Source of the DNA: Alphaproteobacteria bacterium
GTDB taxonomy: Bacteria; Pseudomonadota; Alphaproteobacteria; CADEGL01
Direction: 5' to 3'
Length of the DNA stretch: 64,000 bases
NCBI GenBank assembly: GCA_026400755.1
Contig: JAPLOM010000026.1
Location: 928-64,927, forward strand
Made by a program: the position numbers and the translations under genes. This document shows positions 25,228 through 43,503 of this stretch, in pieces. Within the stretch, counting starts at the first letter, position 1. Every line of letters begins with the position of its first letter. The notes below the pieces were generated by a model that did no database searches, was not told where the DNA came from, and saw only the letters and a list, made by a program, of their open reading frames with translations.

Positions 25228-25578
25228 ATGGCCACTTACGACGTCGTCCGCTGTCCGGCTTGCGCCAAGCTGACCCTGCCCCAACAGGGACGCTGCCAGC
25301 ATTGCAACGCGGATGTGTCCGCGAAACCAAGGGGTTCGGCGTCCCCCACCTATCAGCCGCGCAAGCGGCGAATCTCCACGGTGAAGTCGCCCTGCATCGG
25401 CACCTGCATGCTGTTTCCCGGCACGCAGATGTGCTCCGGCTGCTTCCGCACGGTGGACGAGGTGCGCGACTGGATCGAGATGACGGACAAAGAGCGGTTG
25501 GCCGTCATCGCGGAGCTGGACGAACGCTGCAAAATCCACGGCCCGCCGCGCCTGCCGCCCGATCCGGCCAAGCGCTGA
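25228..25578 (+). CDS. DUF1289-family Cys-rich protein
   Basis: N-terminal CxxC..CxxC ribbon and DUF1289 motif (SPCIGTCML...CSGCFRTVDEVRDW). Confidence 0.6.
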   Translation: MATYDVVRCPACAKLTLPQQGRCQHCNADVSAKPRGSASPTYQPRKRRISTVKSPCIGTCMLFPGTQMCSGCFRTVDEVRDWIEMTDKERLAVIAELDERCKIHGPPRLPPDPAKR

Positions 25579-25624
25579 CCTCCGTCACCGCCTGAAATTT
25601 CCCAGAAAGTCCCGCAACGGCCGG

Positions 25625-26623
25625 TTAGTCCGCCGGAGCCCGGACCTTGGCCTTGCGCAGACGCCGCTTCATGGCCTCGTGCGCGTGCCGCGAGCCGTCA
25701 TGCCCTGTGCCGCGCCACCAGTCGATCGGTGTCATGCTGTCGCCGTAGTTCACCTCGAAATAGCGGTGATGCAGATAGTGCATGTAGGAGGCCGCGGCGA
25801 TGCGCGGCTTGCCGCCGACGAGCACGGTCGCGAAGCCGCAATGGTCGCGCGCGGGACCGAAGGCCGCGGCGATCAGGTGATAGACGACGATCACAGGATC
25901 GGACGGCACCACCAGGTGGATCAGGACGCTCGAGAAATAGAGCAGATGCTCAACCGGATGCATGGCCAGGCCGGACCAGGGACCGGGGTTCGCATTCTTG
26001 TGATGCAGATGGTGGACCCAGCGGTAGAGCGGCGGCCAGTGGATGAGGCGATGGATGCAATAGAAATGCACATCGCGGAACCACTGCACGCCCAGCATCA
26101 CGAGCGCGAGATAAATGGGACGCTCGGCCCACGACACGGTCGGCACAGCACCGCTGGCCATCGCCCAGAGAACGAGCGCCATGAAGCAAGTCATCACCGG
26201 CACCGCGCTCAGCATCGTCCAGATGCGGTTGTCGATATGCTGGTTGCCGAACAGGAAGGTGGCGCCGGGCTTCGGCCAGCTTTCGTCGTACTTGAACGAA
26301 AACGCCTGCGCGCGCCGTGCGTAGAGCCGCCAGTGCCAGGCTTCCGTGAAGACGAAGACCAAGCCCGCGTTGACGGCCAGAAGCTGCGCGATCCAGCCGA
26401 ACAAGAGTGTCCGCATCGCTGAAAGATCGGGCATGAGAGACAGCCACGCGACCAGCGCGGTGCCGACATAGAAGACGTTCCAGGGAAACAGATAGCCCGG
26501 CAGGCCGAAGAACCATTTCAGCGCGGCCAAGGGCTTCGGCGGCCAGGCGAACAGCGGCACCAACGCCACCCCGCCTGGGGGCGCCCATCCGCCCGTGTTC
26601 ACCAAGTCGGTCCGATCGGTCAT
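25625..26623 (-). CDS. fatty-acid hydroxylase / sterol desaturase superfamily membrane protein
   Basis: His boxes (HRLIHWP, HHLHHK, HHRYF) with TM segments; start trimmed to MTDRTDL. Confidence 0.75.
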   Translation of the reverse strand: MTDRTDLVNTGGWAPPGGVALVPLFAWPPKPLAALKWFFGLPGYLFPWNVFYVGTALVAWLSLMPDLSAMRTLLFGWIAQLLAVNAGLVFVFTEAWHWRLYARRAQAFSFKYDESWPKPGATFLFGNQHIDNRIWTMLSAVPVMTCFMALVLWAMASGAVPTVSWAERPIYLALVMLGVQWFRDVHFYCIHRLIHWPPLYRWVHHLHHKNANPGPWSGLAMHPVEHLLYFSSVLIHLVVPSDPVIVVYHLIAAAFGPARDHCGFATVLVGGKPRIAAASYMHYLHHRYFEVNYGDSMTPIDWWRGTGHDGSRHAHEAMKRRLRKAKVRAPAD

Positions 26624-26694
26624 CCGCACCGCCGCCTGATCGCCGAGACGGAAACGGTATGCCCCTTGCCGCGCGCCCGCAAGGACGCGGGAAC

Positions 26695-28113
26695 TCAATG
26701 CGCGCCGGCGCTGGCGTCGGGCGGCGGCGTGTCGGCGTCGACGGCGGCGGCCAAGGCGCCGATGGTGACCGGCTTGTAGGGCGCGCGCGGCCGATAGGGC
26801 GGTACGGAGGCTTCCGGCATCTTGCGCTCGTCGGCGACCAGGGCCGCGACCGTCGGGCCGCACATGCGCCCCTGACACGGACCCATGCCGCAGCGCGTGT
26901 AGGTCTTGGCCTGCGTCAGGCCGATGGCGCCGATGCGCGCCACCTCGCGCAGTGTGCCGGCGGTGACCTCCTCGCAGCGGCAGACGATGACGTCGTCGGG
27001 CGGCAGGCGCTGTCCCGGCGCCGGCTTATAGAGAAGGTCGAGGAATTGCCGCGCGCCGCGCAAACGCGCCAGCGACGCGCGCGCATGGGACGCCGCGCGG
27101 TCGCGCGCTTCTTCCGAAATCTTGCCGAGACGCTGCGCCGCGCCCAGTGCTGCAATGCGGCCCGTATGCTCGGCGGCTTCGGCGCCCCAGATGCCGCCGC
27201 CGTCACCCGCGACGGAAACGCCGTCGACGCTGGTGGCCCCCCACGCATCCAGGCGCGGCCGCCAGCAGAGCTGCGTCGCGTCCCAGTCATGGCCGCCATT
27301 GATCGCCATGGTGACATGCACGTTGGGGATGACGCCTTCGTGCAGCAGCACCAGCTCGGTCTCGATGCGCTCGCGCTTGCCGTTCACCGCGAACGTCAGC
27401 GCGGTGCAGGCATCGTTGCCCTCGACGGCCAGGCTGCTTGCGCCCTGCCAGCGTTTCACCCCGTGCTTGCGCAAGTCGCGCAGCATGGCGGCGCCCTTGA
27501 GCAACAGCTTCCGCTGCCACAGCGCGGGCAACAGATACGGCGCGGCGGCGCGGTAGTTCGCGCCCGGCTGCGTCTCGACCAGCGCACGCACCTCGACACC
27601 CGCGGCCAGATACTGCGCGGCCAGGAGATACAGAAGCGGCCCGCTGCCCGCGAGCACGGCGGGTTTGTCAGGCACGGCCCCCGTGGTCTTGAGCAGGATC
27701 TGCGCGGCGCCGACACTCATCGCGCCCGGCAAGATCCAGCCGCGCACCGGCACCGGCCGTTCCATGGCGCCCGTGGCCAGGATCACATGGGCCGCGTCGA
27801 TCTCGCCGGCCCGATTGTCGCGCAGGACGGACAGGCGAAGCTCGGGCGACAGGTCCCACAGGGTCGTGTTGGGGCGATAGGCCACGCCCCCGGCCAAAAA
27901 CTTTTCCGTCAGCGCCATGCCGTGCGCGTATTCCGCGCCCAGCGCCGCCTCCAGCCTGGCGTCGCGCGCCTCGGCGCGGCGATAGATCTGCCCGCCCGGA
28001 CGCGGCTGCTCGTCCAGCACCACGGCCGAGAGGCCGCGCGCCTTAGCCTCCAGCGCGGCAGCCATGCCGGCCGGCCCCGCGCCCACGATGGCCAGTTCGA
28101 AGCGTTCGGTCAT
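26695..28113 (-). CDS. FAD/NAD(P) oxidoreductase large subunit with BFD-like [2Fe-2S] domain (HcnB / opine oxidase A-like)
   Basis: Pyridine nucleotide-disulfide oxidoreductase fold (AIVGAGPAGMAAA) plus CRCEEV...CGMGPCQGRMC BFD-like cluster. Confidence 0.8.
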   Translation of the reverse strand: MTERFELAIVGAGPAGMAAALEAKARGLSAVVLDEQPRPGGQIYRRAEARDARLEAALGAEYAHGMALTEKFLAGGVAYRPNTTLWDLSPELRLSVLRDNRAGEIDAAHVILATGAMERPVPVRGWILPGAMSVGAAQILLKTTGAVPDKPAVLAGSGPLLYLLAAQYLAAGVEVRALVETQPGANYRAAAPYLLPALWQRKLLLKGAAMLRDLRKHGVKRWQGASSLAVEGNDACTALTFAVNGKRERIETELVLLHEGVIPNVHVTMAINGGHDWDATQLCWRPRLDAWGATSVDGVSVAGDGGGIWGAEAAEHTGRIAALGAAQRLGKISEEARDRAASHARASLARLRGARQFLDLLYKPAPGQRLPPDDVIVCRCEEVTAGTLREVARIGAIGLTQAKTYTRCGMGPCQGRMCGPTVAALVADERKMPEASVPPYRPRAPYKPVTIGALAAAVDADTPPPDASAGAH

Positions 28114-28125
28114 GGGGCGAACATC

Positions 28126-28262
28126 GCGAATTCGGGCGATGCCGAAGCCCACCTCACCCCAACCCTCTCCCCCCTAAAGGGCGGAGAGGGAGGGTAAATC
28201 CAAACCTTCTCCGCCCCGCCGGGGGGGAGAAGGTGCGAGCGTAGCGAGCGGATGAGGTGGGG
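28126..28262. repeat. REP-like GC-rich palindromic repeat element (copy A)
   Basis: CCTCTCCCCCCT...AGGGCGGAGAGGGAGGG imperfect palindromes; shares GGTGCGAGCG-AGCGA--GGTGGGG block, in inverted orientation, with the element at ~34435-34560. Confidence 0.5.
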
Positions 28263-28300
28263 ACCGCCGCATTGGGGCATTGTCATCACTCTCCCGACGC

Positions 28301-28612
28301 TCACGACTCCGCCTTCCCGCCCAACGCGCGGGCGCCCATCTGGCGCGTCACCACCATGCCCTCGCGCGCCTCGATCATGCAGGCCTGGCGGTTGCCCTCG
28401 CCGTCGATCTGGACCAGGCAGTCGAAGCAGACGCCCATCATGCAATAAGGCCCGCGCGGCGTGCCGGAGACGGGCGTGGTGCGCCCGGCCTTGGACCCTG
28501 CGAGGAACAACGCGGCCGCAACGGTCTCGCCCGCGCGCAATTCCACCGCGACGCCGTCGATCGTCAGGCGCAGCCGCGCGCCCGCGTCCGCGCTAGGCAG
28601 CCTTCGGAACAT
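28301..28612 (-). CDS. (2Fe-2S)-binding small subunit (HcnA / opine oxidase C-like)
   Basis: ~100 aa, Cys motif YCMMGVCFDCLV...ACM. Confidence 0.65.
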   Translation of the reverse strand: MFRRLPSADAGARLRLTIDGVAVELRAGETVAAALFLAGSKAGRTTPVSGTPRGPYCMMGVCFDCLVQIDGEGNRQACMIEAREGMVVTRQMGARALGGKAES

Positions 28613-29714
28613 CGAATCGCTCGGGCACGAGTTTCAAGGTGGGCTCCGGCCGCGCGCCGCCTGCGATCCAGCCCGCGATCTCGCGCGCGTGCGCGGCGCA
28701 GAGCGTCACGCCGCTGTGGCAGGTGGCGGCGAAGGCGCCCGGCATGGTCTTGGATTCGGCATAGATGGGCAGGCCGTCCGGCGACATCACGCGCAACGCC
28801 CCCCAGGCGCGCACGATCTGCGCCTTTTCCAGCACGGGGAAACAGGTCATGGCGCGCGCCGCGATGTTGGAGATCACGGGCACGGTGGTTCGGTTGTCGA
28901 GGCCGACGTCCTCTTGCGAATCGCCGATGATGACGCTGCCTTCCACCATCTGGCGCGCGTTGGTGAAGGTGACGCCGCCGCCCATGACACCCGGCGCCAA
29001 CCGCTCGGTCACCAGCACCTGGCCGCGCTGCGGGTTGACCGGCACGCGGATGCCGACCAGTTCGGCCAGCCGGCGCGTGCCCAGGCCGGCCGCGATCAAC
29101 AGCTTGGGCGCGTGGAAGCTGCCCTTGTCGGTGCGCACGACGAAGACGCCGGCCTCCTTATCGATCAGCGAGACGGTGTGGCCGGGCGAATACTGCGCGC
29201 CGCGCGCGGCCAGGGAAGTGTGCAGGGCGCGGATGGTGTAAAGCGGGTTGGCCACGCCGTCATAGGGCGTGAAGGATGCGCCCAAGACGCGCGGCCCCAC
29301 GTTGGGCAACAGGCTTCGCACGCCCGCCGCGTCCAGCATCTCGTAATCATAGCCGTCGTTGCCGGCCTCGCGGCGCAGCTGCTCCATCATCGCGGCGCGC
29401 GCGGCCACTTCCTGCTCGGTCAGCAGCAGATGCACGCCGCCCGTGCGCTTGTGATGCGTATCGACGCCGGTCGCGTCCTTCAGCTCGGCCGCGAAATCGG
29501 CCCATAGGTCGGCCGAGCGCTTGCTCCAACGCGCGTAATGCGGCGCGCCGAATCCCTTGCTCTGCACCCAGACCAGGCCGAAATTCCCGCGCGTGGCGCG
29601 AAAGGCGCGGTCGCCCTCGTCGAGGACCAGAACGCGCGCGTTCTTCGACAGGCCGTAGGCGATGGCCGAGCCCACCAGCCCGCCACCGATGACGATCACG
29701 TCCGGCTTATTCAT
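28593..29714 (-). CDS. FAD-dependent oxidoreductase beta subunit (HcnC / OoxB / DAO-like)
   Basis: DAO-family N-terminus (DVIVIGGGLVGSAIAYGL); first gene of a three-gene operon. Confidence 0.8.
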   Translation of the reverse strand: MNKPDVIVIGGGLVGSAIAYGLSKNARVLVLDEGDRAFRATRGNFGLVWVQSKGFGAPHYARWSKRSADLWADFAAELKDATGVDTHHKRTGGVHLLLTEQEVAARAAMMEQLRREAGNDGYDYEMLDAAGVRSLLPNVGPRVLGASFTPYDGVANPLYTIRALHTSLAARGAQYSPGHTVSLIDKEAGVFVVRTDKGSFHAPKLLIAAGLGTRRLAELVGIRVPVNPQRGQVLVTERLAPGVMGGGVTFTNARQMVEGSVIIGDSQEDVGLDNRTTVPVISNIAARAMTCFPVLEKAQIVRAWGALRVMSPDGLPIYAESKTMPGAFAATCHSGVTLCAAHAREIAGWIAGGARPEPTLKLVPERFDVPKAA

Positions 29715-29894
29715 GCCTGTCCGTCCCGTATGCGAAGCCATGTCCCGTAAGGCCGGGCGCGGAGGATAGCGGCGGGGAACCAAGCGCGCCAGCAGGCGTT
29801 ATGTCCGTTGAAATTGGGTGACTCGCAGTCGGCTGACGTGACGACGCCGTCCCCGCACGGCGATCCCGGATTCACATTCATTGGGGAGTTCGAC

Positions 29895-30074
29895 ATGGCT
29901 GAAACCACGAATACGAGCGGCGGAAGCAACAACGTTCTCTATTTCATCGTCGGCGCCATGCTCGTGGCGATCGTCGTACTTGGGTTCATGTTCTTCAACG
30001 GAAATCTGGGCGGCAACCGCGACAAAGTGGACATCACCATCCAGACACCGAAGATCGAAGCGCCGAAGCAGTAG
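29895..30074 (+). CDS. small membrane protein (59 aa)
   Basis: GGGGAG RBS, single TM helix (VLYFIVGAMLVAIVVLGFMFF), followed by a strong intrinsic terminator. Confidence 0.4.
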   Translation: MAETTNTSGGSNNVLYFIVGAMLVAIVVLGFMFFNGNLGGNRDKVDITIQTPKIEAPKQ

Positions 30075-30112
30075 CGACCTGCGCGAGCGGAAACGCTCGC
30101 TCCATGATTTAG

Positions 30113-30152
30113 AGAAATCCCCTCCGCGCTCACGCGCGGGGGGATTTTTTTT
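30113..30152 (+). terminator. rho-independent terminator
   Basis: CCCCTCCGCGC-tcac-GCGCGGGGGG stem followed by T8. Confidence 0.7.
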
Positions 30153-30240
30153 AAGCGTGAACGCGCGCGTTCTTCGCCAAGCCGTAAGCGATGGCCGGGC
30201 CCACGAGCCCGCCGCCGATGACGATCACGTCCGGTTTCAT
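30151..30240 (-). pseudogene. duplicated 5' fragment of the OoxB/HcnC-like gene (29 codons, MKPDVIVIGGGLVGPAIAYGLAKNARVHA*)
   Basis: ~150 bp at 30155-30300 is ~85-90% identical to 29612-29790 (start codon plus 5' leader of the gene at 28593..29714). Confidence 0.6.
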
Positions 30241-30629
30241 GCCTGCCAGTCCCATAAGCGAAGAACAGGGCGCGGAGGATAGCGGCGGGGGTGATGCTTA
30301 GGCGGAGACCTGGTCAGAAACGTCTATGGCGGGCAACTGCGCGGTATCGTGCTAATCGAACTTGGTACTAAAATGACGCTCTGAGCGACGGTAACGTCAC
30401 TGGACCTTCGTCCTAGAAGTTACCCTTGAAACAGCCTGACTAAGCTTTCAGTAAAATTTTCTAGTTACTTTGGATATTACAGAATGCCGCCGCTGCCCCT
30501 TTACCCGTCTATTGAAAACACGGATGCCGCGAACACCGCTGGCGTAAAGCCATTTTTGAGGTGGGCCGGAAGTAAACGCAAACAACTATCCAGACTTCGC
30601 CGTTTCGTCTGAGAATCTCAGGAACATTC

Positions 30630-32252
30630 ATGAATCGCTACGACTACATCATCGTCGGCGCAGGCACGGCGGGGTGCGTGATCGCGTCGCGTCTGTCGGA
30701 GGACCCGAAGCTGCGCGTGCTGCTGATCGAGGCGGGGCAGCGGGACACGCATTGGTCGATCCGCATCCCCTCGGCGATCGGGCGCAATTATAAGAGCGGC
30801 CCGTTCAACTGGGGGTTCTGGAGCACGCCGCAGAAGCACCTGAACGACCGCGTCATCGTGCAGGCGCGCGGGCGCGTGTTGGGCGGCTCGTCCTCGGTCA
30901 ACGGCATGGTTTACCTGCGCGCCCACGCGCTGGATTTCGAACGCTGGGTCGAGGAAGGCGCCGCGGGCTGGTCGTATGCCGACGTGCTGCCCTATTTCCG
31001 GCACATGGAGCGGTTCACGGGCGGCGCCAGCGAATACCGCGGCGACAGCGGCCCAGTCACGGTGCGCAAGGGCGTGCCCAGCCATCCCGTCAACCAGGCC
31101 TTCCTGCGCGCGGGCGAACAGGCGGGATACGGCTTGACCGACGACGTGAACGGCTTCCGCCGCGACGGGTTCGGAAGCTGGGACATGAACATCGACCAGG
31201 GCGTGCGCGCCAGCTCGGCCTATTCCTATTTGCGCCATGTGCAGCGCGACAATTTGACGGTCCTGACCGAAGCCTTCGCGACACGCATCCTGTTCGACGG
31301 CGACCGCGCCGTGGCGGTGGAATGCCGGCACGGCGGCCAGGTGCATCGCATCGAGGCCGAGCGCGAAATCGTGCTGAGCGCGGGCAGCATCAAGTCGCCG
31401 CATCTGTTGATGCTGTCGGGCATCGGGCCGGCCGACCACCTGCGCGGCCACGGCATCGGCGTGCAGGTGGATGCGCCGGACGTGGGGCAGAATTTGCAGG
31501 ATCACGTCTACCTGTTCCTGCAATACGAATCGAAGCAGGCCATCTGCCTCAACCCCCACGCGCATGGCTGGCGCATGGCGGTGGCGGGCGCGCGCTGGTT
31601 CGCGAACCGCACGGGCCCGGCCGCGAGCAACAATATCGAGGTGGGCGCCTTCTATCGCAGCCGGGCGGATGTGACGCATCCGGACGCGCAGCTTCATTTC
31701 CGGCCGATCCTCTTGGACCCCGACACGTGGGCGCCGTCGCGAAGCCACGGCTATAATTTCAGCCTGGGGCCGAAGCGCCTGACCAGCCGGGGCACGCTGT
31801 CGCTGGCCAGCGCCGATCCCGAAGCCTCTCCGGTCATCGACCCCAACCATCTGGCGACCGAGCAGGATCGCGCGGATTTCCGCCTGCAGTTCCGCCAGAC
31901 GCGCGAGATCGGGATGCAGAAGGCCTTCGATCCCTTCCGCGGGCGCGAGGTGGGGCCGGGCGCCACGGCGCAAACGGACGCCGAGATCGACGCCTATGTG
32001 CGCGCCTACGGCCATAGCTCGTGGCACAACACCAGTTCTTGCCGCATGGGCAGCGACGCGCGCGCGGTGGTGTCGCCGGACCTGAAGGTGCGCGGCGTGC
32101 GCGGGCTTCGCGTGGCCGACACCTCCGTCATGCCCAGCATGATCAGCGCCAACACCAACTGCACCGCCTTCATGCTGGGCGAAAAGGCCGCCGACCATAT
32201 TCGCGGCGGCCCGATGCTGGCGCCGATGAATTTGCCGTTTTGGCGGGGGTGA
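30630..32252 (+). CDS. GMC-family FAD oxidoreductase (choline dehydrogenase-like), copy 1
   Basis: YDYIIVGAGTAGCV FAD motif, GMC signatures, 540 aa. Confidence 0.9.
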   Translation: MNRYDYIIVGAGTAGCVIASRLSEDPKLRVLLIEAGQRDTHWSIRIPSAIGRNYKSGPFNWGFWSTPQKHLNDRVIVQARGRVLGGSSSVNGMVYLRAHALDFERWVEEGAAGWSYADVLPYFRHMERFTGGASEYRGDSGPVTVRKGVPSHPVNQAFLRAGEQAGYGLTDDVNGFRRDGFGSWDMNIDQGVRASSAYSYLRHVQRDNLTVLTEAFATRILFDGDRAVAVECRHGGQVHRIEAEREIVLSAGSIKSPHLLMLSGIGPADHLRGHGIGVQVDAPDVGQNLQDHVYLFLQYESKQAICLNPHAHGWRMAVAGARWFANRTGPAASNNIEVGAFYRSRADVTHPDAQLHFRPILLDPDTWAPSRSHGYNFSLGPKRLTSRGTLSLASADPEASPVIDPNHLATEQDRADFRLQFRQTREIGMQKAFDPFRGREVGPGATAQTDAEIDAYVRAYGHSSWHNTSSCRMGSDARAVVSPDLKVRGVRGLRVADTSVMPSMISANTNCTAFMLGEKAADHIRGGPMLAPMNLPFWRG

Positions 32253-32257
32253 CAACG

Positions 32258-32815
32258 ATGCAGGGCAGCACAGTTATCGAGTGGGTGCTGGTCGGATTGC
32301 TCGGCTACTGGCTGGCCAGGCGGAATTTCAAAAAATACCGCGCGAGCTCAACCCGCACTGATGGGACGTTGAAGGAATTGGTCCGATGGTATTTCTGGCC
32401 CGACATCCGAAACGAAACCGAGGCGCGTAAAGAGTTTGAATCCGTTCGCTCAATTTCGGGCGTCTTCGCGATCATTATGCTGTTGGCCCCAGTCATTATC
32501 CTTGGCTTGAAAGAAGGGTTCTCGCCCAGAGTGCTCGATTCGCATTCGATTTTTTCGCGGTTTGGGGAGTTCTTCTTGGTGTCCTTGGCATTCGCGACGA
32601 TCTGGTATTTCGCGAGACGCGGACGTCAGTGGGTACTTTTCGCGAGCGCTTTGGGTCTCGCCGGTTTCTCAGTGTTTGTCCTCTTGTTTAGTGCCCTCTA
32701 TGAGGGCCACATCGCTCCTTTGGCACCCCTCATTTTCTCTCGATTCTCACTGCGGGGGTTTACAAGTTTCGAGCCTGGATGTGGTTTCGCGATCACCCCG
32801 AAAGCACCCTCGTAA
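32258..32815 (+). CDS. hypothetical membrane protein in low-GC segment
   Basis: 185-aa ORF with 4-5 hydrophobic helices; ~52% GC versus ~68% background; starts 5 nt after GMC stop. Confidence 0.45.
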   Translation: MQGSTVIEWVLVGLLGYWLARRNFKKYRASSTRTDGTLKELVRWYFWPDIRNETEARKEFESVRSISGVFAIIMLLAPVIILGLKEGFSPRVLDSHSIFSRFGEFFLVSLAFATIWYFARRGRQWVLFASALGLAGFSVFVLLFSALYEGHIAPLAPLIFSRFSLRGFTSFEPGCGFAITPKAPS

Positions 32816-32860
32816 CCGATCGCTCCCCGTAAAACGGGTGACGCATACTCCGCTTCGCCC

Positions 32861-33172
32861 TCAGAGCACCCAGAAATCCGCGAACGTCTCCCGCCCGTGC
32901 GCGTGCGGCCTTGGGTCGGCGGCCCGCGCGCGCCGCGCCATCTCCCGCGCGTGGAACAGGACCTTGCGCGCTTCCTTCAGCGCCTCGCGGCCGGCTTTCG
33001 TCAGCGTCACGGTCCGGCCCTTGCGGTCGAACAGCTCGACCCCCAGGCGCGTTTCCAGCTTGCGGATCGAAACGGACAAGGGCGGCTGGGCCATATTGAG
33101 TTTTTCGGCGGCCCGCCGGAAATGCAGGATTTCGGCCAGGGTCACGAATTGTTCAAGCTGCCGGAGATACAT
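32861..33172 (-). pseudogene. truncated LysR-family regulator (HTH domain only)
   Basis: 103 aa with intact LysR HTH (FRRAAEKLNMAQPPLSVSIRKLE) but no substrate-binding domain; divergent from the luciferase-like gene. Confidence 0.55.
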
Positions 33173-33336
33173 TGATACTCACCAGGTATCGGGCCATAGC
33201 CATTTAATATTAGAAGCCGCCCGGCCCGTCCATTAGCGTATCGCCGCCTTGATCCCCCCTTTAACGTCCGGACTTGGCTGCGGGGCCGCTTTCGAGCCCC
33301 GGCCTTCGGACCCTTTTGCGCCTGGAGCACCCCCCG

Positions 33337-34428
33337 ATGCATTTCGGCTATTTCAATCTGATGCAGACCCGCGACCCCGCCAAGCCGCCCAAGGCCGCGT
33401 TCCAGGAGACGTTGGCCCAGGTGAAGCAGGCCGAGGAGATCGGCTTCGAAATGGCGTGGTTCGCCGAGCATCATTTCTCGACCTACAGCGTCTGCGCCTC
33501 GCCCATGGTGGCGGCGGCCTGGATCGCGGGCCAGACCAAGAAGATCAAGCTGGCGCCCGGCGTGCTGCTCCTCCCCCTCTACGATCCCGTCCGGCTGATC
33601 CAGGAGATCGGCATGGTCGACCTGATGAGCGACGGGCGCTTCGTGCTGGGCATCGGCACGGGCTACCAGCCCTACGAGTTCGAACGCTTCAACGTGAACC
33701 TGAAGGAAGGCGGCGACCGCTTCGTCGAGTTCCTCGACATGATGGAACACGCCCTGACCGAAGGGCACTTCAGCTATAAGGGCAAGTACTACACCTATCC
33801 CGACACGCGCATCGCGACCTTGCCCGAGCGGCGCCTGCCCGAGGTGTATGTGGCCGGCGTCTTGAACCACCCCGTCATCCGCAAGCACATCGCCGAGCGC
33901 GGCTATGTGCCGCTGTTGGCCCCGGCCTGGAACCCGATCGGTTTGGTCGAGAAGCAGCTGGAGGGCTATCACGAGGTGGCGCGCGGCGTGGGCGTTTCTC
34001 CGGACAAGTTCCCCTTTTCGGTGATGCGCTTCATCCATGTGACCGACAGCCGCCAGGACGCGCTGGCCGCGGCGGAGAATTTCCGCTTCTCCACCCGCGC
34101 CGCCGTGGCCCTGCGCAACAACTACGGCGAGTTCGACGGCGTCACGCCGCGCGATATCGCGGCCAAGGACGAACCGGCCCTGGAGCAGATCGTCGACAAC
34201 TGCATCATCGGCGATCCGCATCTGTGCGCGGAGAAGATCGTGGCCGAGGCCAAGAAGCTGAACCCGATCCATTTCGCGTGCTTCATGCAGGCCGGCTTCA
34301 CCACCCACGCGCAGGCAAGCCGCAGCCTGGAACGCTTCGGCGCCGAGGTGCTGCCGCTGGTGAAGAAGGCCCTGCCCAACCTGGACAAGATCGGCGCGCC
34401 GCCGGGCCCGCTGCGCGCCGGGTCATAA
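33337..34428 (+). CDS. LLM-class (luciferase-like) flavin-dependent monooxygenase/oxidoreductase
   Basis: Bac_luciferase TIM-barrel signature (MAWFAEHHFSTYSVCASP...GIGTGYQPYEFERF). Confidence 0.85.
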   Translation: MHFGYFNLMQTRDPAKPPKAAFQETLAQVKQAEEIGFEMAWFAEHHFSTYSVCASPMVAAAWIAGQTKKIKLAPGVLLLPLYDPVRLIQEIGMVDLMSDGRFVLGIGTGYQPYEFERFNVNLKEGGDRFVEFLDMMEHALTEGHFSYKGKYYTYPDTRIATLPERRLPEVYVAGVLNHPVIRKHIAERGYVPLLAPAWNPIGLVEKQLEGYHEVARGVGVSPDKFPFSVMRFIHVTDSRQDALAAAENFRFSTRAAVALRNNYGEFDGVTPRDIAAKDEPALEQIVDNCIIGDPHLCAEKIVAEAKKLNPIHFACFMQAGFTTHAQASRSLERFGAEVLPLVKKALPNLDKIGAPPGPLRAGS

Positions 34429-34434
34429 GGCGTG

Positions 34435-34560
34435 TAGGTCTCCCCTCCCCAACGAGGGAGGGGCAAGGGGGAGGGGGTTAACGAGAGTCTTCTCCCCCCC
34501 ACCCAATCGCTCCGCTCGCACCCTCTCCCTCGCTGGGGAGAGGGTCGTTAAGGTGCTCTC
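34435..34560. repeat. REP-like GC-rich palindromic repeat element (copy B)
   Basis: TCTCCCCTCCCC...GGGGAGAGGG imperfect palindromes; related to 28126-28262. Confidence 0.5.
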
Positions 34561-34588
34561 CACTTCGCGCGCACGTCCCGGGGGAATC

Positions 34589-36214
34589 ATGAATCGCTAC
34601 GACTATGTCATCGTCGGCGCCGGCACGGCGGGCTGCGTCATCGCCGCGCGGCTGTCGGAAGATCCCACGCTGCGCGTGCTTCTGATCGAGGCGGGTCAGC
34701 GGGACACGCACTGGTCGATCCGCATCCCGTCCGCCATCGGCCGCAACTATCAGAGCGGGCCGTTCAACTGGGGCTTCCTGTCGACGCCGCAGAAGCACCT
34801 GAACAACCGCGTGGTGGTGCAGGCGCGCGGCAAGGTGCTGGGCGGCTCGTCCTCGGTCAACGGCATGGTTTACTTGCGCGGCCATGCGCTCGATTTCGAA
34901 CGCTGGGTGCAAGAGGGCGCCGCGGGTTGGTCATACGCCGAGGTGCTGCCCTATTTCCGGCGCATGGAACGGTTCACGGGCGGCACAAGCGAGTATCGCG
35001 GCGACACGGGCCCGGTCGTCGTGCGCAAGGGCACGACCGATCATCCGATCAACGAAGCCTTTGTCCGCGCGGGCGACCAGGCCGGTCACGGGCTGACCGA
35101 CGACGTCAACGGCTTCCGCCAGGACGGCTTCGGAAGCTGGAACATGAACATCGACCAGGGCATGCGCGCGAGTTCGGCTCGCGCCTATCTGCGCGGCGCG
35201 GCCGAGCGCAGCAACTTGACCGTGCTGACCGAGGCCTTCGCGACGCAAGTTTTGTTCGACGGCGACCGGGCCACCTCCGTCGAATACCGGCATGGCGGCG
35301 CCCTCCATCGCGCGGAGGCCGAGCGCGAGATCGTGCTGAGCGCGGGCGGCATCAAATCGCCGCATCTTCTGATGCTGTCGGGCATCGGTCCGGCCGATCA
35401 TCTGCGCGAACACGGCATTGGCGTGCGCGTCGATGCGCCCGATGTGGGCCGGAACGTGCAGGATCACATGTACCTGATGCTGCAATACGAATCGAAGGAG
35501 AACATCTGCCTCAACCCACACGCGCGGGGCTGGCGCATGGTGATGGCGGGCGCGCGCTGGTTCGCGACGCGCTCGGGCCCCGCCGCCAGCAACCATATCG
35601 AGGTGGGCGCCTTCTTCCGCAGCAACGGGCAGGTGAGCCATCCCGACTCTCAGATTCATTTTCGGCCACTTCTGCTCGACCCCGTGACGTGGCTGCCGTC
35701 CAAGGTGCATGGCTACAATTTTGGCGTCGGCCCTCTGCGCCCCACCAGCATGGGCTCGGTCACCCTGGCCAGCGCCGATCCCTACGCCGACCCGATCGTC
35801 GATCCCAACCATCTCGGGACCGAGAAGGACCGCGCGGATTTCCGCACCCAGTTCAAGATGACACGCGAGGTGGGACAGCAGGCCGCGTTCGACCGCTTCC
35901 GCAAGCGCGAGGTGGGGCCCAGCACCGCGGCCCAGACGGATGCCGAGATCGACGCCTTCATCCGCGCCTATGCCCACAGCGCCTGGCACAATGTCGGCGC
36001 CTGCCGGATGGGCAGCGACGCACGCGCGGTGGTGTCGCCGGATTTGAAGGTGAACGGCGTGCGCGGTTTGCGCGTGGCCGACACCTCAGCCATGCCAAGC
36101 ATGATCAGCGCCAACACCAACTGCACCACGTTCATGCTGGGCGAGCGCGCCACCGACATCATCCGCGGCGGCCCCATGCTGGCGCCGTTGAACTTGCCGT
36201 TCTATCGGGGGTGA
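34589..36214 (+). CDS. GMC-family FAD oxidoreductase, copy 2 (paralog of 30630..32252)
   Basis: ~88% nucleotide identity over the 5' 400 bp to copy 1, estimated by eye; same motifs. Confidence 0.9.
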   Translation: MNRYDYVIVGAGTAGCVIAARLSEDPTLRVLLIEAGQRDTHWSIRIPSAIGRNYQSGPFNWGFLSTPQKHLNNRVVVQARGKVLGGSSSVNGMVYLRGHALDFERWVQEGAAGWSYAEVLPYFRRMERFTGGTSEYRGDTGPVVVRKGTTDHPINEAFVRAGDQAGHGLTDDVNGFRQDGFGSWNMNIDQGMRASSARAYLRGAAERSNLTVLTEAFATQVLFDGDRATSVEYRHGGALHRAEAEREIVLSAGGIKSPHLLMLSGIGPADHLREHGIGVRVDAPDVGRNVQDHMYLMLQYESKENICLNPHARGWRMVMAGARWFATRSGPAASNHIEVGAFFRSNGQVSHPDSQIHFRPLLLDPVTWLPSKVHGYNFGVGPLRPTSMGSVTLASADPYADPIVDPNHLGTEKDRADFRTQFKMTREVGQQAAFDRFRKREVGPSTAAQTDAEIDAFIRAYAHSAWHNVGACRMGSDARAVVSPDLKVNGVRGLRVADTSAMPSMISANTNCTTFMLGERATDIIRGGPMLAPLNLPFYRG

Positions 36215-36433
36215 AATCGAATATCGGCGCGCCCGCAAAGACTTACGGAACGATGTTCAAAACCTGCTGAAAATCTGGGTTTTTCGAAAAGGAAAACGTT
36301 CCGCCTCGCCTACGACTTTTTGCCCCCGTTTCGCCATCGTCCGGTCCTTCCTCCGCCCCCGTTGTTTGGGAACCTTCACAGGTACTGAGCCGTTTCTTCT
36401 CCGGGTAACACACGGCTCACAGGGAGAACCCAC

Positions 36434-39466: not shown

Positions 39467-40252
39467 ATGGCCGCCGCACGCAAGACCAAGGGTAAGACGA
39501 ACGGCAAGAAGCCGAAGATGAGCCCGGAAGAGTGGCAGACGCGGGTCAATCTGGCCGCCTGCTATCGCCTGGTCGCGCTGAACGGCATGACCGACCTGGA
39601 CGCGACCCACATCTCGGCGCGCGCGCCCCACAACCCGGAGCATTTCTTCCTCAATCCCTTCGGCATGCTGTTCCATGAGATCACGGCGTCCTCGCTGGTG
39701 AAGCTCGATCTCGACGGCAACATCGTCGAGGAGAACGAGTACGGCCTGAACCCGGCGGGTGTGGTGATCCACAGCGCCGTCCTGCGTGGCCGGCCGGACG
39801 TGGCCAGCGTGGTGCACACCCACACGCGCGCGGGCATGGCCGTCTCGGCGCAGAAGGACGGGCTTCTGCCGCTGACGCAAACCTCGCTGCGCTTCTACGG
39901 CAAGCTGGCCTATCACGACTACGAGGGCATCGCGGAGCCCGGCGAGGAAGAGCGCCTGGTCGAGCATCTGAGCGACAAGCCCGCCATGATCCTGCGCAAT
40001 CACGGGCTCTTAGCCACCGGCCGTACGGTGCCCGAGGCATATCTGAACATCCACGAGCTGGAGCATGCCTGCCAGGCGCAGATCGACGCGCAGAGCGGCG
40101 GCAACGCGAATCTGCTGATCGTGCCCAAGGACGTGTGCGAGAGCACGGCCCAGCAATACATCCGCTTCACCGGCAACAAGATCCCCGGCGAGCGTGCCTG
40201 GCCCGCCCATCTGCGCACCCTCGACCGCGCCGATTCGTCCTACAAGACCTGA
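39467..40252 (+). CDS. class II aldolase/adducin-family protein, copy 1
   Basis: Aldolase_II fold with conserved His cluster (VVHTHT). Confidence 0.85.
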   Translation: MAAARKTKGKTNGKKPKMSPEEWQTRVNLAACYRLVALNGMTDLDATHISARAPHNPEHFFLNPFGMLFHEITASSLVKLDLDGNIVEENEYGLNPAGVVIHSAVLRGRPDVASVVHTHTRAGMAVSAQKDGLLPLTQTSLRFYGKLAYHDYEGIAEPGEEERLVEHLSDKPAMILRNHGLLATGRTVPEAYLNIHELEHACQAQIDAQSGGNANLLIVPKDVCESTAQQYIRFTGNKIPGERAWPAHLRTLDRADSSYKT

Positions 40253-40284: not shown

Positions 40285-41076
40285 ATGACGGCCAATCCCG
40301 CGAGCGTGAGCCGCAGCATGAAGCTGCGCGACAAGGTGAGCCCGGAAGAGTGGCAGGTGCGCGTGGATTTGGCGGCCTGCTATCGGCTGGTCGCCTATTA
40401 CGACATGACGGACCTGACCTTCACCCACATCTCGGCGCGCATCCCGGGCCAGCCGAACCATTTCCTGCTGAATCCATTCGGCATGATGTTCGAAGAGATC
40501 ACGGCCTCGTCCTTGGTGAAGACCCACATGGACGGCACCGTCGACAAGGAAAGCCCCTACGAGTACATCCCCGCCGGCTATACGATCCACAGCGCGGTGC
40601 TGGACGCGCGGCCGGACGTGCAATGCGTGCTGCACACCCACACGAGCGCGGGCATGGCCGTGTCGTCGCTGGAATGCGGCCTGATGCCGATGACGCAGAC
40701 CTCGCTGCGCTTTTACAACAACATCGCCTATCACGATTATGAGGGCGTGGCGCTGGACCATGATGAGCGCACGCGCCTGTCGCGCGACCTGGGCAAGCAG
40801 CAATCCATGATCCTGAAGAACCATGGCCTGCTCACCACTGGCCGCTCGATCGCCGAGGCCTTCGTGCTGATGCACCGGCTGGAGAAGGCTTGCAAAGCCC
40901 AGATCGAGGCGCTGTCCACCGGGCAGAAGCCGATCCAGCTGTCCGAAGACGTGAAAGAACACACGGCCAAGCAGTTCAACGGCATGGCCTTTTCCAACGG
41001 CCCGATCTACGGCGACCGCGAGTGGCCCTCCCTCTGCCGCATGATGGACCGCGTCGACCCCAGCTATAAGATGTGA
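40285..41076 (+). CDS. class II aldolase/adducin-family protein, copy 2
   Basis: ~55% identical to the upstream paralog (estimated by eye); VLHTHT motif. Confidence 0.85.
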   Translation: MTANPASVSRSMKLRDKVSPEEWQVRVDLAACYRLVAYYDMTDLTFTHISARIPGQPNHFLLNPFGMMFEEITASSLVKTHMDGTVDKESPYEYIPAGYTIHSAVLDARPDVQCVLHTHTSAGMAVSSLECGLMPMTQTSLRFYNNIAYHDYEGVALDHDERTRLSRDLGKQQSMILKNHGLLTTGRSIAEAFVLMHRLEKACKAQIEALSTGQKPIQLSEDVKEHTAKQFNGMAFSNGPIYGDREWPSLCRMMDRVDPSYKM

Positions 41077-43448: not shown

Positions 43449-43454
43449 AAGTAG

Positions 43455-43490
43455 AAGGGCCCGGCCGCAAGAATGCAGCCGGGCCCTTCC
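43455..43490. terminator. bidirectional hairpin terminator between convergent genes
   Basis: GAAGGGCCCGGC-cgcaagaatgca-GCCGGGCCCTTC perfect 12-bp stem. Confidence 0.5.
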
Positions 43491-43503
43491 ACTTTGAAAG
43501 TAA

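What the first reader, a model, noticed from the sequence alone, without database searches (positions are those of the whole stretch)
29600..30630. Imperfect ~150-bp direct duplication of a gene 5' end bracketing a small ORF and terminator, followed by low-GC DNA
The start codon, first 29 codons and 5' leader of the HcnC/OoxB-like gene (29612-29790) recur at 30155-30300 with ~85-90% identity by eye and two small indels. Between the copies sit only a 59-codon membrane-protein ORF with a strong RBS and a textbook terminator. Immediately beyond the second copy the GC content drops (30300-30630) and a GMC oxidoreductase cassette begins. This looks like the scar of an insertion or recombination event that duplicated its target, marking the boundary between the housekeeping backbone and the accessory island.
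Basis: seen in the sequence. Interest (0 to 1): 0.6.

Follow-up and report, generated by a model that had tools for sequence, protein, structure and literature searches.

The report
Dead duplicate gene start at hotspot
A 130-150 bp second copy of an oxidoreductase gene's promoter region and first 27 codons is a real but non-functional recombination scar, sitting in a short stretch between two conserved genes where related bacteria keep swapping small pieces of DNA; it is ordinary genome archaeology, not a new kind of element.

Summary
The repeat is real. Window 29630-29777 holds the leader, start codon and first 27 codons of a DAO-family oxidoreductase gene on the minus strand. It recurs at 30159-30290, with 120 of 132 aligned bases identical, 3-bp and 13-bp indels, and self-BLAST E 8e-34.

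Copy B is a dead gene start. It has 27 shared codons, two new codons and a stop, and it abuts the terminator of a conserved 59-aa membrane ORF.

In about a dozen related MAG and metagenome loci, the oxidoreductase operon and the GMC gene are always neighbours. Only the 0.5-7 kb spacer between them varies. It holds an EamA transporter, HigBA, restriction-modification genes, unknown ORFs, or the small ORF. This is a small gene-turnover hotspot, not the edge of an accessory island.

Copy B occurs in one other lineage, with the same junction. There it is decaying: the start codon is lost and pN/pS is about 0.7. It is absent from a contig that is 100% identical to the window for 589 nt up to position 30066. 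So it travels as part of an exchangeable allele.

Best reading: it is a relic of one illegitimate recombination event, either one-ended or single-crossover, later spread by homologous recombination. A tandem duplication that was later trimmed cannot be excluded. Interest is low to moderate.

The parts
26695..28152 (-). OoxA/SoxA-alpha-like flavoprotein subunit, last gene of the operon whose start is duplicated
   Evidence: Pfam Pyr_redox_2, SO_alpha_A3 and Fer2_BFD. NCBIfam soxA subfamily hit below cutoff.
28301..28612 (-). 2Fe-2S ferredoxin-like subunit (Fer2_4)
   Evidence: Pfam Fer2_4 8.6e-28.
28593..29714 (-). Intact DAO-family FAD oxidoreductase gene (HcnC/OoxB-like, 373 aa), first gene of the operon
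   Evidence: Pfam DAO 7.9e-56. No NCBIfam model reaches its cutoff. Orthologues share 84-96% aa identity in relatives.
29630..29777 (-). Copy A: first 27 codons (29714 down to 29634), start codon and about 65 nt of conserved leader of the intact gene. It carries a 13-nt leader insert (29738-29750), also present in L033 and partly mirrored in L009 and L029.
29629..29644 (.). 16-nt perfect palindrome AGAACGCGCGCGTTCT at the left edge of the repeat. Its 14-nt core GAACGCGCGCGTTC occurs only at the two copies.
   Evidence: Inverted repeat I14; 3 matches at 2 mismatches or fewer, and the two exact ones are the copies.
29778..29894 (+). Upstream region and RBS of the small ORF ('Y flank'), conserved with L008, L009 and L010
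   Evidence: Local alignment z = 25.5 (L008) and 9.2 (L009) against shuffles.
29895..30074 (+). Small ORF, 59 aa, single predicted transmembrane helix, function unknown, a real gene
   Evidence: pN/pS 0.20-0.29 between lineages. Only 6 homologues among 5.8 billion proteins, two of them (55-57% identity) in another context. No Pfam, NCBIfam or PADLOC family.
30067..30119 (.). Recombination breakpoint zone. The window and L033 are identical over 29478-30066, then show 21 differences or indels in these 53 nt.
30111..30152 (.). Intrinsic terminator of the small ORF: A-rich tract, G+C-rich hairpin, then T8. It folds on both strands and so looks bidirectional. A second small hairpin lies at 30083-30100.
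   Evidence: z = -6.85 on the plus strand and -4.41 on the minus strand.
30153..30158 (.). Six bases AAGCGT (GAGCGT in L008) between the T-run and copy B. This is the illegitimate junction or filler, with no counterpart in the intact gene or in L033.
   Evidence: Alignments.
30159..30290 (-). Copy B: displaced, truncated gene start. It holds the leader, the ATG at 30240, 27 codons, then His-Ala-stop (TAA 30153-30151). It is of the 372-aa 'MKPD' allele type.
   Evidence: L006's gene caller even calls it as a 29-aa gene.
30291..30629 (.). Low-GC (49%) spacer found only in this organism. It contains a 42-codon ORF (30484-30612, +) whose residues 21-32, VKPFLRWAGSKR, resemble the N-terminus of Dam/D12 DNA adenine methylases. 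It is probably a relic of earlier cargo.
   Evidence: No match in any relative. GC content. Pairwise E 5e-5 to the D12 methylase at the same hotspot in L034. All 10 listed weak tblastn hits but one lie on annotated Dam-family or DNA adenine methylase genes, with E about 0.6. No Pfam hit.
30630..32252 (+). GMC oxidoreductase 1 (choline-dehydrogenase subfamily), the conserved right-hand border of the variable spacer
   Evidence: Pfam GMC_oxred_N and GMC_oxred_C. NCBIfam PRK02106 scores 667.7 bits against a cutoff of 605. It is 91-93% nt identical in L001, L009, L030 and L031.

Best explanation
Copy B is a non-functional relic: a displaced copy of the promoter/leader and first 27 codons of the DAO-family oxidoreductase gene. 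It lies at the left edge of a short gene-turnover hotspot between two conserved neighbours, the oxidoreductase operon and a GMC oxidoreductase gene.

It was created once, in some ancestor, by a single illegitimate join. That join links the end of the small ORF's terminator, plus 6 filler bases, to codon 28 of the oxidoreductase gene, at the edge of a GC-rich palindrome.

The most likely route is recombination of a DNA segment that carried a copy of the gene start, with homology on one side only. This could be homology-facilitated illegitimate recombination, or its topological equivalent, single-crossover integration of a small circle. The operon kept an intact start and the other start was pushed outward.

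The composite (gene start, small ORF, terminator, dead gene start) has since been passed between lineages, and partly overwritten, by ordinary homologous recombination. That is why copies A and B in this genome belong to different allele types.

Shown: the relic status, the hotspot, the shared junction, and the exchange by recombination. Inferred: the one-ended or single-crossover mechanism of the founding event.
For: (1) Hotspot. In 9 lineages with usable sequence, the spacer between the two conserved genes is 527-7158 nt and has different content in each. L001 and L030 have EamA. L008 has HigBA plus the small ORF plus three unknown ORFs. L031 has DUF6210, TPR, HTH_3, Vsr, a C5 methylase and RHH. 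L034 has a D12 methylase. L028 has a GMC-type N-terminal fragment. L036 and L009 have unknown ORFs. Spacer GC is 55-67% against 68-69% in the flanks. No integrase or transposase lies within about 10 kb on either side.

(2) Copy A plus the small ORF is a contiguous native arrangement in relatives that lack B (L009, L010, L033). Leader followed by variable DNA, as seen to the right of B, is the arrangement in all single-copy relatives.

(3) Single illegitimate junction. W and L008 share the sequence T-run, RAGCGT, GAACGCGC.

(4) Relic status. In L008 the copy has ATG changed to ACG, a 2-bp loss, a 6-nt leader insertion, and pN/pS about 0.74 against its functional copy (4.8/21 synonymous, 10.2/60 non-synonymous). 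W_B carries S15P in the dinucleotide-binding motif region and S22A. Extra copies exist only in W/L006 and L008 among 13 loci. There is no Rfam hit and the leader is unstructured.

(5) Exchange by homologous recombination. W and L033 show 0 differences in 589 nt, then 21 in 53 nt, then no homology after the terminator. The 3'UTR relationships are mosaic.

(6) Different allele types. W_B is 95.3% identical to L008's functional start, 93.2% to L034, 91.5% to L031 and 90.0% to L030. It is only 81% (with gaps) to W_A. It shares the one-codon-shorter MKPD start and GCCAGTCCC with the 372-aa alleles.

(7) A second event of the same kind. In L008 the HigBA module is bracketed by a 28-nt perfect repeat of the leader, and the two copies continue into two different leader types.

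(8) Precedent. HFIR is proposed for sequential displacement arrays (PMC5361080). Single crossover with a truncated homologous fragment gave 109-950 bp duplications in E. coli (PMC3240628). Hotspots without mobile-element genes but with recombining flanks are known (PMC5635113).
Against: The founding event itself is not observed, and no donor carrying 'terminator-AAGCGT-other DNA' was found.

The flank right of W_B resembles the single-copy relatives only over GATGC(T)TAGGCGG, a weak match: 37 of 500 shuffles do as well.

The flank right of L008_B weakly resembles the small ORF's upstream region, with p about 0.05-0.09. That would fit a tandem duplication better.

Codon 24 differs between the two B copies: AAC in W, GAT in L008, each matching a different set of functional alleles. 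A single origin therefore requires later gene conversion to within about 12 nt of the junction, or else the junction arose twice.

All relatives are MAG or metagenome contigs. L033 is a 721-nt k-mer assembly and could itself be a strain chimera.

Sliding-window identity across the gene shows no clean breakpoint.
Confidence: 0.55

Rival explanations
1. In-situ tandem duplication of the block (codon 28 to gene start, leader, small ORF, terminator) in a genome that already had the small ORF. The second small ORF and terminator were later deleted, leaving only the second gene start.
For: It produces the same topology with the same single novel junction. The junction lies between two hairpin-forming sequences, the terminator and the 16-nt palindrome, which are typical sites of replication template switching (own knowledge). 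The DNA right of L008_B shows marginal similarity, in the right order, to the small ORF's upstream region. The motifs are GGTGCCAG and CGCTGTCGGCTGCCG, with p about 0.05-0.09. In L008, copies A and B are both of the MKPD type.
Against: No trace of a second small ORF or terminator exists in W or L008. The W_B flank shows no similarity to the small ORF's upstream region: 720 of 1000 shuffles do as well. No intermediate with two small ORFs was found in any sampled lineage. The model needs an extra deletion step.
Confidence: 0.25
2. One reading: a recent insertion into this genome duplicated its target, and the repeat marks the border between the housekeeping backbone and a large accessory island that starts with the GMC cassette.
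For: There are direct repeats bracketing a small gene with lower GC (57%), followed by 49% GC DNA.
Against: The GMC1, monooxygenase and GMC2 block is collinear and 81-91% identical in L030. GMC is the neighbour in all relatives. The junction is shared with the roughly 10% diverged L008. L033, identical to the window up to 30066, lacks B. The small ORF is present in single-copy lineages. The copies are 9-19% diverged and of different allele types.
Confidence: 0.07
3. The repeats are attL and attR of a site-specific integrative element, or a transposon's target-site duplication. The element carried a replacement gene start and has since been reduced to the small ORF.
For: Integrative elements that target gene ends carry a substitute end and leave the displaced fragment as a direct repeat (own knowledge). 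The repeat contains a 23-nt identical block and starts at a palindrome. The same junction in two lineages could reflect site specificity.
Against: No recombinase or transposase lies between the copies or within about 10 kb, nor on L008. Only 381 bp lie between the copies. The repeat is about 130-150 bp and imperfect, far longer than any target-site duplication. The identical 23-nt block is simply the most conserved part of the leader in all relatives. The palindrome is not a dispersed site. The other cargo at this hotspot is not bounded by such repeats.
Confidence: 0.04
4. Copy B is a maintained functional element. It could be a second promoter producing an antisense or convergent transcript against the small ORF, a regulator-titrating decoy of the conserved leader box, or a 29-aa micropeptide gene.
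For: In W the start codon, reading frame and the 23-nt leader box are intact. The terminator looks bidirectional. A gene caller annotates the 29-aa ORF.
Against: It is absent from 10 of 12 related lineages, including a near-identical one. In L008 the start codon is lost, the leader box is degraded and substitutions are near-neutral. The peptide is only the first beta-alpha unit of a Rossmann fold and carries an S15P change. There is no Rfam match and no stable leader fold.
Confidence: 0.05
5. Assembly artefact: chimeric joining of strain variants in a MAG.
For: The source is evidently a MAG. Co-occurring strain variants exist in the same study (L033 against L006).
Against: Three independent assemblies carry the two-copy arrangement: the window itself, ENA contig L006 (99.87% identical, not the same sequence), and Logan contig L008 from another run and lineage.
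Confidence: 0.01

Closest known systems
Homology-facilitated illegitimate recombination (HFIR) products, described for Acinetobacter, Streptococcus pneumoniae, Pseudomonas stutzeri and E. coli conjugation (as summarised in PMC5361080 and PMC3240628; the original 2002 papers were not readable here)
   Same: There is one end in homology (the oxidoreductase gene or its leader). There is one end joined without homology, with a few filler bases. New DNA is trapped next to a conserved anchor, and no recombinase gene is needed.
   Different: The process is inferred from comparative sequence only and was not observed. Classical HFIR usually gives insertion with deletion, whereas here the anchor-proximal segment ended up duplicated. 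The organism's competence or GTA status is unknown.
Single-crossover (Campbell-type) integration of a circular molecule carrying a truncated homologous fragment; 109-950 bp lacZ duplications in PMC3240628
   Same: Direct repeats of about 130-150 bp of the homologous segment bracket the inserted DNA. One repeat end is the arbitrary end of the carried fragment. The product can revert by recombination between the repeats.
   Different: No plasmid or circle is known here. The postulated circle would be only about 530 bp. The copies are now 9-19% diverged and of different allele types, because of later exchange.
Sequential displacement arrays: Rhs/CDI 'orphan' C-terminal tips and V. cholerae T6SS effector-immunity arrays (PMC5361080; Jackson et al. 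2009 and Koskiniemi et al. 2014 as cited there)
   Same: A fragment of the conserved part of a gene is left behind next to older cargo each time a new module arrives. L008 has three partial copies of the gene start separating HigBA, the small ORF and further cargo. The composite arrays then move between strains by homologous recombination.
   Different: Here the 5' end plus promoter is displaced, not the 3' end. The gene is a metabolic oxidoreductase, not a polymorphic toxin. The cargo is heterogeneous. The array is at most 2-3 units long and is rare.
Horizontal-transfer hotspots between core genes that lack mobile-element genes (Oliveira et al. 2017, PMC5635113; defence-island hotspots, PMC10121019)
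   Same: It is a fixed interval between two conserved genes with rapid turnover of unrelated cargo, including TA and restriction-modification genes. It has lower GC, no integrase, and recombination in the flanks.
   Different: It is very small (0.5-7 kb) and was sampled in only about 10 uncultured lineages. No PADLOC defence model matched the unknown cargo.
attL/attR duplication of a gene end by integrative elements (phages or ICEs inserting in tRNA or protein-gene ends; own knowledge)
   Same: The target gene stays intact because a substitute end is supplied. The displaced end persists as a direct repeat.
   Different: There is no recombinase and no element-sized insert. The repeat is imperfect throughout rather than having an exact core flanked by unrelated arms.

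Membership tests
Transposon target-site duplication | Short (about 2-14 bp), identical direct repeats immediately flanking an element with terminal inverted repeats and a transposase | tested here: not met
   The repeat is about 130-150 bp and 81-91% identical, with indels. Only a 59-aa ORF and a terminator lie between the copies. No inverted repeat bounds the segment between the copies.
Integrase-mediated island (attL/attR in a gene end) | A tyrosine or serine recombinase gene inside the element next to one att site | tested here: not met
   No such gene lies between the copies or in 21.5-43.4 kb of the window. None of the called genes on L008 has an integrase domain.
Integrase-mediated island (attL/attR in a gene end) | The target gene is reconstituted by element-borne sequence, and the displaced fragment sits at the far end | tested here: met
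   The intact 373-aa gene is next to copy A, and the truncated 27-codon fragment is at copy B.
Integrase-mediated island (attL/attR in a gene end) | An identical core sequence in both att sites that marks the crossover point | tested here: inconclusive
   A 23-nt identical block exists. It coincides with the leader box that is invariant in nearly all relatives, so it does not identify a crossover site.
HFIR / one-ended or single-crossover recombination product | One junction without homology (possibly with filler or microhomology) and one side in continuous homology with the recipient | tested here: met
   The junction reads T8-AAGCGT|GAACGCGCG, and the filler has no similarity to the gene. 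The left side runs uninterrupted into the intact gene.
HFIR / one-ended or single-crossover recombination product | The two joined parts each correspond to a contiguous arrangement found separately in other genomes | tested here: met
   Copy A plus the small ORF is contiguous in L009, L010 and L033. Gene start plus leader plus unrelated cargo is contiguous in L001, L030, L031, L034 and L036.
HFIR / one-ended or single-crossover recombination product | Demonstrated uptake and integration of linear or circular DNA in the organism (competence, GTA or conjugation) | not testable with these tools
Tandem duplication | The second copy continues into a second copy of the sequence that follows the first (leader, small-ORF upstream region, small ORF) | tested here: inconclusive
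   W_B flank against the small-ORF upstream region shows no similarity: 720 of 1000 shuffles do as well. L008_B flank is marginal at 52-92 of 1000. No second small ORF is present.
Sequential displacement array (Rhs/CDI/T6SS-like) | Repeated fragments of the conserved gene part, each followed by different cargo, stacked in one orientation | tested here: met
   W has 2 copies and L008 has 3 copies, at 1358-1466, 2235-2262 and 2662-2770. These separate HigBA, the small ORF and further ORFs.
Sequential displacement array (Rhs/CDI/T6SS-like) | Cargo consists of polymorphic toxin tips with cognate immunity genes, and it is the 3' end of the gene that is displaced | tested here: not met
   The displaced part is the 5' end with its leader. 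The gene belongs to the DAO family. The cargo is a small membrane ORF, HigBA and similar genes.
Conserved cis-regulatory RNA or known small RNA | A match to a curated covariance model, or a stable conserved fold | tested here: not met
   The Rfam E-value search of 29400-30800 returned only sub-threshold terminator-like hits. The leaders fold no better than shuffles, z = +1.1 and +1.6.
Core-gene-flanked HGT hotspot | The same two conserved flanking genes with different intervening gene content among related genomes | tested here: met
   There are 9 lineages with a spacer of 527-7158 nt and at least 7 different contents.

The most novel reading that the evidence does not exclude
The locus may work as a recombinase-free '5'-end displacement' hotspot. 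Cargo would arrive physically linked to a copy of the neighbouring operon's promoter and first codons. That copy serves as the homology anchor, so each arrival keeps the operon intact and pushes the previous gene start outward.

This would stack dead starts: two in this genome and three in L008. The stacked starts then serve as extra landing pads and as excision repeats for the small-ORF cassette. The scheme is a mirror image, at a metabolic operon, of the C-terminal displacement known for Rhs/CDI/T6SS toxin loci.
Probability: 0.25. Interest if true: 0.45.

Novelty: new member of a known kind. Interest (0 to 1): 0.25.

Why it matters
The finding gives a clean, sequence-resolved example of how a small gene-turnover hotspot without any mobile-element genes evolves in an uncultured alphaproteobacterial lineage. 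One illegitimate join left a dead gene start, and homologous recombination then shuffled the resulting alleles. The breakpoint is visible to within a few bases at about 30067.

For annotation, the 29-codon 'gene' that pipelines call at 30151-30240 should be marked as a pseudogene fragment. The GMC block should not be labelled an accessory island.

If the displacement pattern (2-3 stacked gene starts) proved general, it would extend the displacement-array idea from toxin 3' ends to operon 5' ends. The present evidence, from two lineages, is too thin to claim that.

Tried and rejected
(1) Wrong frame. The correct coordinates are 29895-30074. The Pfam and NCBIfam scans were redone with the protein sequence and found no family. 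PADLOC was not redone in the correct frame.

(2) Genome-collection scan with the oxidoreductase protein. It gave only one close relative, L001. The metagenome scan with a 4-sequence alignment gave only one truncated close relative, L012. Most useful relatives came from exact-protein look-ups, and all 12 of those are now used.

(3) Sliding-window identity across the oxidoreductase gene, to find a donor/recipient breakpoint. All lineages are 88-92% identical to each other with a patchy mosaic, and there is no clean breakpoint.

(4) Tests for homology beyond the repeat, to decide between tandem duplication and import. Results were only marginal (p 0.04-0.09) or null, so this is not decisive.

(5) Rfam and leader folding found no RNA element.

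(6) Sigma-70 promoter scan found no match. A hand reading of CTAGCG-N17-CTATCC in the conserved leader as an alphaproteobacterial-type promoter is only my conjecture.

(7) PADLOC on unknown cargo ORFs of L008, L009 and L031 gave no hits, so 'defence hotspot' is not claimed. Only HigBA, Vsr with a C5 methylase, and a D12 methylase are recognisable.

(9) The original HFIR papers (PMC122324 and PMC122325) are not held. They are cited only through PMC5361080.

(10) The palindrome as a dispersed recombination site was rejected, because it occurs only at the two copies.

Full report
OBSERVATION

The reported repeat exists. The repeat finder and a pairwise alignment show that window 29630-29777 recurs at 30159-30290 in the same orientation. 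There are three blocks: 79 nt at 91%, 28 nt at 86%, and 23 nt at 100%. They are separated by a 3-bp and a 13-bp indel. BLASTN of the window against itself scores the pair at E = 7.6e-34, with 120 matches, 12 mismatches and 16 gap columns.

Copy A is the real 5' end of a DAO-family FAD oxidoreductase gene on the minus strand (28593-29714, ATG at 29714; Pfam DAO 7.9e-56). This gene heads an operon with a Fer2_4 ferredoxin (28301-28612) and an OoxA/SoxA-like subunit (26695-28152).

Copy B reads MKPDVIVIGGGLVGPAIAYGLAKNARV, then His-Ala-stop. It therefore shares 27 codons with the gene, not 29.

Between the copies lie the upstream region of a small ORF and the ORF itself. The ORF is 29895-30074, 59 aa, with one hydrophobic helix and a GGGGAG box 6 nt before the ATG. 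After it come a small hairpin and a strong terminator (30111-30152). The 86-nt region folds at -48.4 kcal/mol, z = -6.9, and the opposite strand also folds well at z = -4.4. With an A-rich tract before the hairpin and a T-run after it, the terminator looks bidirectional. Six bases (AAGCGT, 30153-30158) separate the T-run from copy B.

Beyond copy B, GC falls to 47.5-49.5% until the GMC oxidoreductase gene starts at 30630.

WHAT THE RELATIVES SHOW

The lineage is rare and uncultured; source records call it only 'Alphaproteobacteria bacterium'. I assembled 13 related loci from one genome-collection scan, one metagenome scan and twelve exact-protein look-ups. Their oxidoreductase genes are 84-96% identical in protein and about 82-94% in DNA. 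The lineages are roughly equidistant from one another and visibly mosaic.

In every locus that reaches far enough, the oxidoreductase operon and a GMC oxidoreductase gene are neighbours. L030 (GCA_050180485.1) is collinear with the window from 25526 to 36324. That span covers both GMC paralogues and the luciferase-like monooxygenase between them. The 'GMC cassette' is therefore backbone, not an accessory island.

Only the spacer between the two conserved genes varies. It is 527-7158 nt long with 55-67% GC, against 68-69% in the flanks. Its content by locus:
- L001 and L030: an EamA transporter.
- L031 and L032: DUF6210, a TPR protein, HTH_3, Vsr, a C5 DNA methylase and an RHH protein.
- L034: a D12 (Dam-type) methylase plus a 468-aa ORF.
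- L036: three unknown ORFs.
- L028: a 103-aa N-terminal fragment of a different GMC enzyme.
- L009 and L010: the small ORF plus a low-GC 181-aa membrane ORF.
- L008: HigBA, the small ORF, a second gene-start fragment and three unknown ORFs.
- The window: the small ORF, copy B, and 339 nt of DNA found in no relative.

No integrase or transposase lies within about 10 kb in the window. This matches the known category of horizontal-transfer hotspots that are flanked by core genes, lack mobile-element genes and have recombining flanks (Oliveira et al. 2017, PMC5635113). PADLOC recognised none of the unknown cargo, so I do not call it a defence hotspot.

THE SMALL ORF

It is a genuine gene. pN/pS is 0.20-0.29 between lineages. 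Two homologues at 55-57% identity exist in a different context. It has only six homologues among 5.8 billion proteins and matches no family.

It is not the 'insert' that goes with the duplication. L009, L010 and L033 have it next to the oxidoreductase gene with only one gene start. L001, L028, L029, L030, L031, L034 and L036 have neither the small ORF nor a second gene start.

COPY B IS A RELIC THAT TRAVELS WITH AN ALLELE

Extra copies of the gene start exist only in the window (and its near-identical twin L006) and in L008.

L008 has the same junction, T-run then GAGCGT then GAACGCGC. This points to a single founding event older than the roughly 10% divergence of these lineages. In L008 the fragment is decaying:
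- The start codon is ACG.
- A CG dinucleotide has been lost.
- There is a 6-nt insertion in the leader box.
- Against the functional copy there are 4.8/21 synonymous and 10.2/60 non-synonymous differences, giving pN/pS about 0.74.
In the window the fragment is better preserved but carries S15P and S22A.

The two copies in the window belong to different allele types.
- Copy A has the 373-aa MNKPD start, CACCAGCCC, GTCCGTCCC and a 13-nt leader insert. It is shared with L033 and is nearest to L001 and L009.
- Copy B has the 372-aa MKPD start, CACGAGCCC and GCCAGTCCC.
Copy B's identity to other gene starts is 95.3% to L008's functional start, 93.2% to L034, 91.5% to L031, 90.8% to L036 and 90.0% to L030. 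Its identity to copy A is only 81%, counting gaps. The A/B divergence therefore reflects lineage divergence, not the age of a duplication within this genome.

The most direct evidence comes from L033, a 721-nt contig from the same study. It has zero differences from the window over 29478-30066 (589 nt). That span covers the gene's 5' part, copy A with its private insert, and the small ORF to about codon 57. Then there are 21 differences or indels in the next 53 nt. The terminator stem is the same, and after the T-run the sequence is completely unrelated, with no copy B. The 3'UTR relationships are mosaic: L033-L008 79%, W-L033 64%, W-L008 55%.

So the segment carrying copy B is an allele of the variable region, exchanged by homologous recombination with a crossover at about 30067. 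One caveat applies. L033 is a short k-mer assembly and could itself be a strain chimera. Even so, it proves that a haplotype exists in which the terminator is not followed by copy B.

HOW THE RELIC AROSE (INFERENCE)

The structure has one illegitimate junction. The end of the small ORF's terminator plus six filler bases is joined to codon 28 of the gene, one base inside a 16-nt perfect palindrome, AGAACGCGCGCGTTCT. That palindrome is not a dispersed site. Everything else is continuous homology.

Three routes give this topology.
(a) One-ended, homology-facilitated illegitimate recombination of a fragment carrying a gene start.
(b) Single-crossover integration of a small circle (gene start, leader, small ORF, terminator). 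This is the known source of 109-950 bp duplications in E. coli (PMC3240628).
(c) Tandem duplication of that same block, followed by loss of the second small ORF.

Routes (a) and (b) are favoured for three reasons. First, each half of the structure matches an arrangement found separately in other genomes. Second, B's leader continues, weakly, like that of the genomes that lack the small ORF: GATGC(T)TAGGCGG, with 37 of 500 shuffles doing as well. Third, L008 records a second, cleaner event of the same kind. Its HigBA module is bracketed by a 28-nt perfect repeat of the leader, and the two copies then continue into two different leader types. That pattern is what a crossover inside the conserved leader would produce between a resident and an incoming allele.

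Route (c) is not excluded. The DNA right of L008's fragment resembles the small ORF's upstream region at p about 0.05-0.09.

One observation fits none of the routes cleanly. Codon 24, only about 12 nt from the junction, is AAC in the window's fragment and GAT in L008's, and each matches a different group of functional alleles. This needs either gene conversion almost up to the junction or a second origin at the same site.

My estimates are:
- 0.8 that copy B is a non-functional recombination relic in a hotspot.
- 0.55 that its founding event was one-ended or single-crossover import.
- 0.25 for a trimmed tandem duplication.

COMPARISON WITH KNOWN SYSTEMS

The nearest mechanistic analogues are HFIR and Campbell-type products. 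The nearest architectural analogue is the 'sequential displacement' array of Rhs/CDI and V. cholerae T6SS effector-immunity loci. In those loci, fragments of the conserved gene part are left behind as new modules arrive, and the composite arrays spread by homologous recombination (Kirchberger et al. 2017, PMC5361080).

The present case differs in several ways. It displaces a 5' end with its promoter rather than a 3' end. It involves a metabolic operon. It carries heterogeneous cargo. It has only 2-3 units and is seen in only two lineages.

It is not a transposon target duplication, because the repeat is too long and imperfect and there is no element. It is not a recognisable integrase att pair, because there is no recombinase and only 381 bp lie between the copies. 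It is not a known RNA element.

VERDICT

It is a new example of a known kind of genomic scar, of low-to-moderate interest. The most novel reading still open is a general recombinase-free 5'-end displacement mechanism at this hotspot. I give that a probability of about 0.25.

Noticed in passing
window 30484-30612 (+), inside the low-GC spacer 30291-30629: A 42-codon ORF whose residues 21-32 (VKPFLRWAGSKR) look like the N-terminal motif of Dam/D12 DNA adenine methylases. The pairwise match to the D12 methylase at the same hotspot in L034 has E 5e-5. Nine of the 10 listed weak plasmid tblastn hits lie on annotated Dam-family or DNA adenine methylase genes (one lies under no annotated feature), with E about 0.6. 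There is no Pfam hit. It is probably the stump of a lost methylase or R-M cargo.
   Followed up: partly
L008 1445-1472 and 2235-2262: A 28-nt perfect direct repeat of the oxidoreductase leader brackets a HigB/HigA (HTH_3) toxin-antitoxin module. After the 28 nt, the two copies continue into different leader variants. This looks like a second, more recent insertion of the same style as the one that made copy B.
   Followed up: partly
window 30628-32258 vs 34587-36220: Two GMC (choline-dehydrogenase-like) oxidoreductase paralogues are 81.5% identical in DNA, separated by a luciferase-like monooxygenase. The arrangement is conserved in L030. In L028 and L036 the GMC gene next to the hotspot is closer to the second paralogue.
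   Followed up: partly
window 32861-33172 (-): A 103-aa ORF consisting only of a LysR-type HTH domain. It is either a truncated regulator or a stand-alone HTH protein. The DNA is conserved at about 84% in L030.
   Followed up: no
window 32258-32815 (+): A low-GC (52-58%) 185-aa ORF with no Pfam or PADLOC match lies between GMC1 and the LysR fragment. L030 has different genes there (a 174-aa ORF, a cold-shock protein and a 139-aa ORF). This is a second small variable spot about 2 kb from the first.
   Followed up: no
L028 3949-4260: A 103-aa N-terminal fragment of a different GMC-family enzyme (VIYDTIIVGGGAAG...) sits between the oxidoreductase gene and the GMC gene. It is another gene-start stump in the same hotspot.
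   Followed up: partly
L001 241-335 and 1515-1611: The EamA transporter gene in the hotspot of L001 is flanked by direct repeats of a GC-rich palindromic element, spaced 1274 nt apart and 74-88% identical (for example TACTAGACCCCGGCTCGGGGGCCGG). The element looks REP- or MITE-like.
   Followed up: no
window 34439-34545 and 28148-28193: A short dispersed intergenic repeat. The window copy at 34439-34545 matches intergenic DNA inside the oxidoreductase operon region of L001, L009, L028 (second window copy only), L030 and L034 at 77-90%.
   Followed up: no
window 39515-40091 vs 40333-40912; 53437-54836 vs 55984-57475; 43445-43498: Other internal similarities were found by self-BLAST. There are two adjacent class II aldolase paralogues (72%), a pair of paralogous genes (66%), and a 54-nt imperfect palindrome.
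   Followed up: no
window 30067-30074 (end of the small ORF): The window's small ORF ends ...APKQ (59 aa). All relatives end ...APKTQ or ...APKTP (60 aa). The difference starts exactly at the recombination breakpoint with L033.
   Followed up: yes
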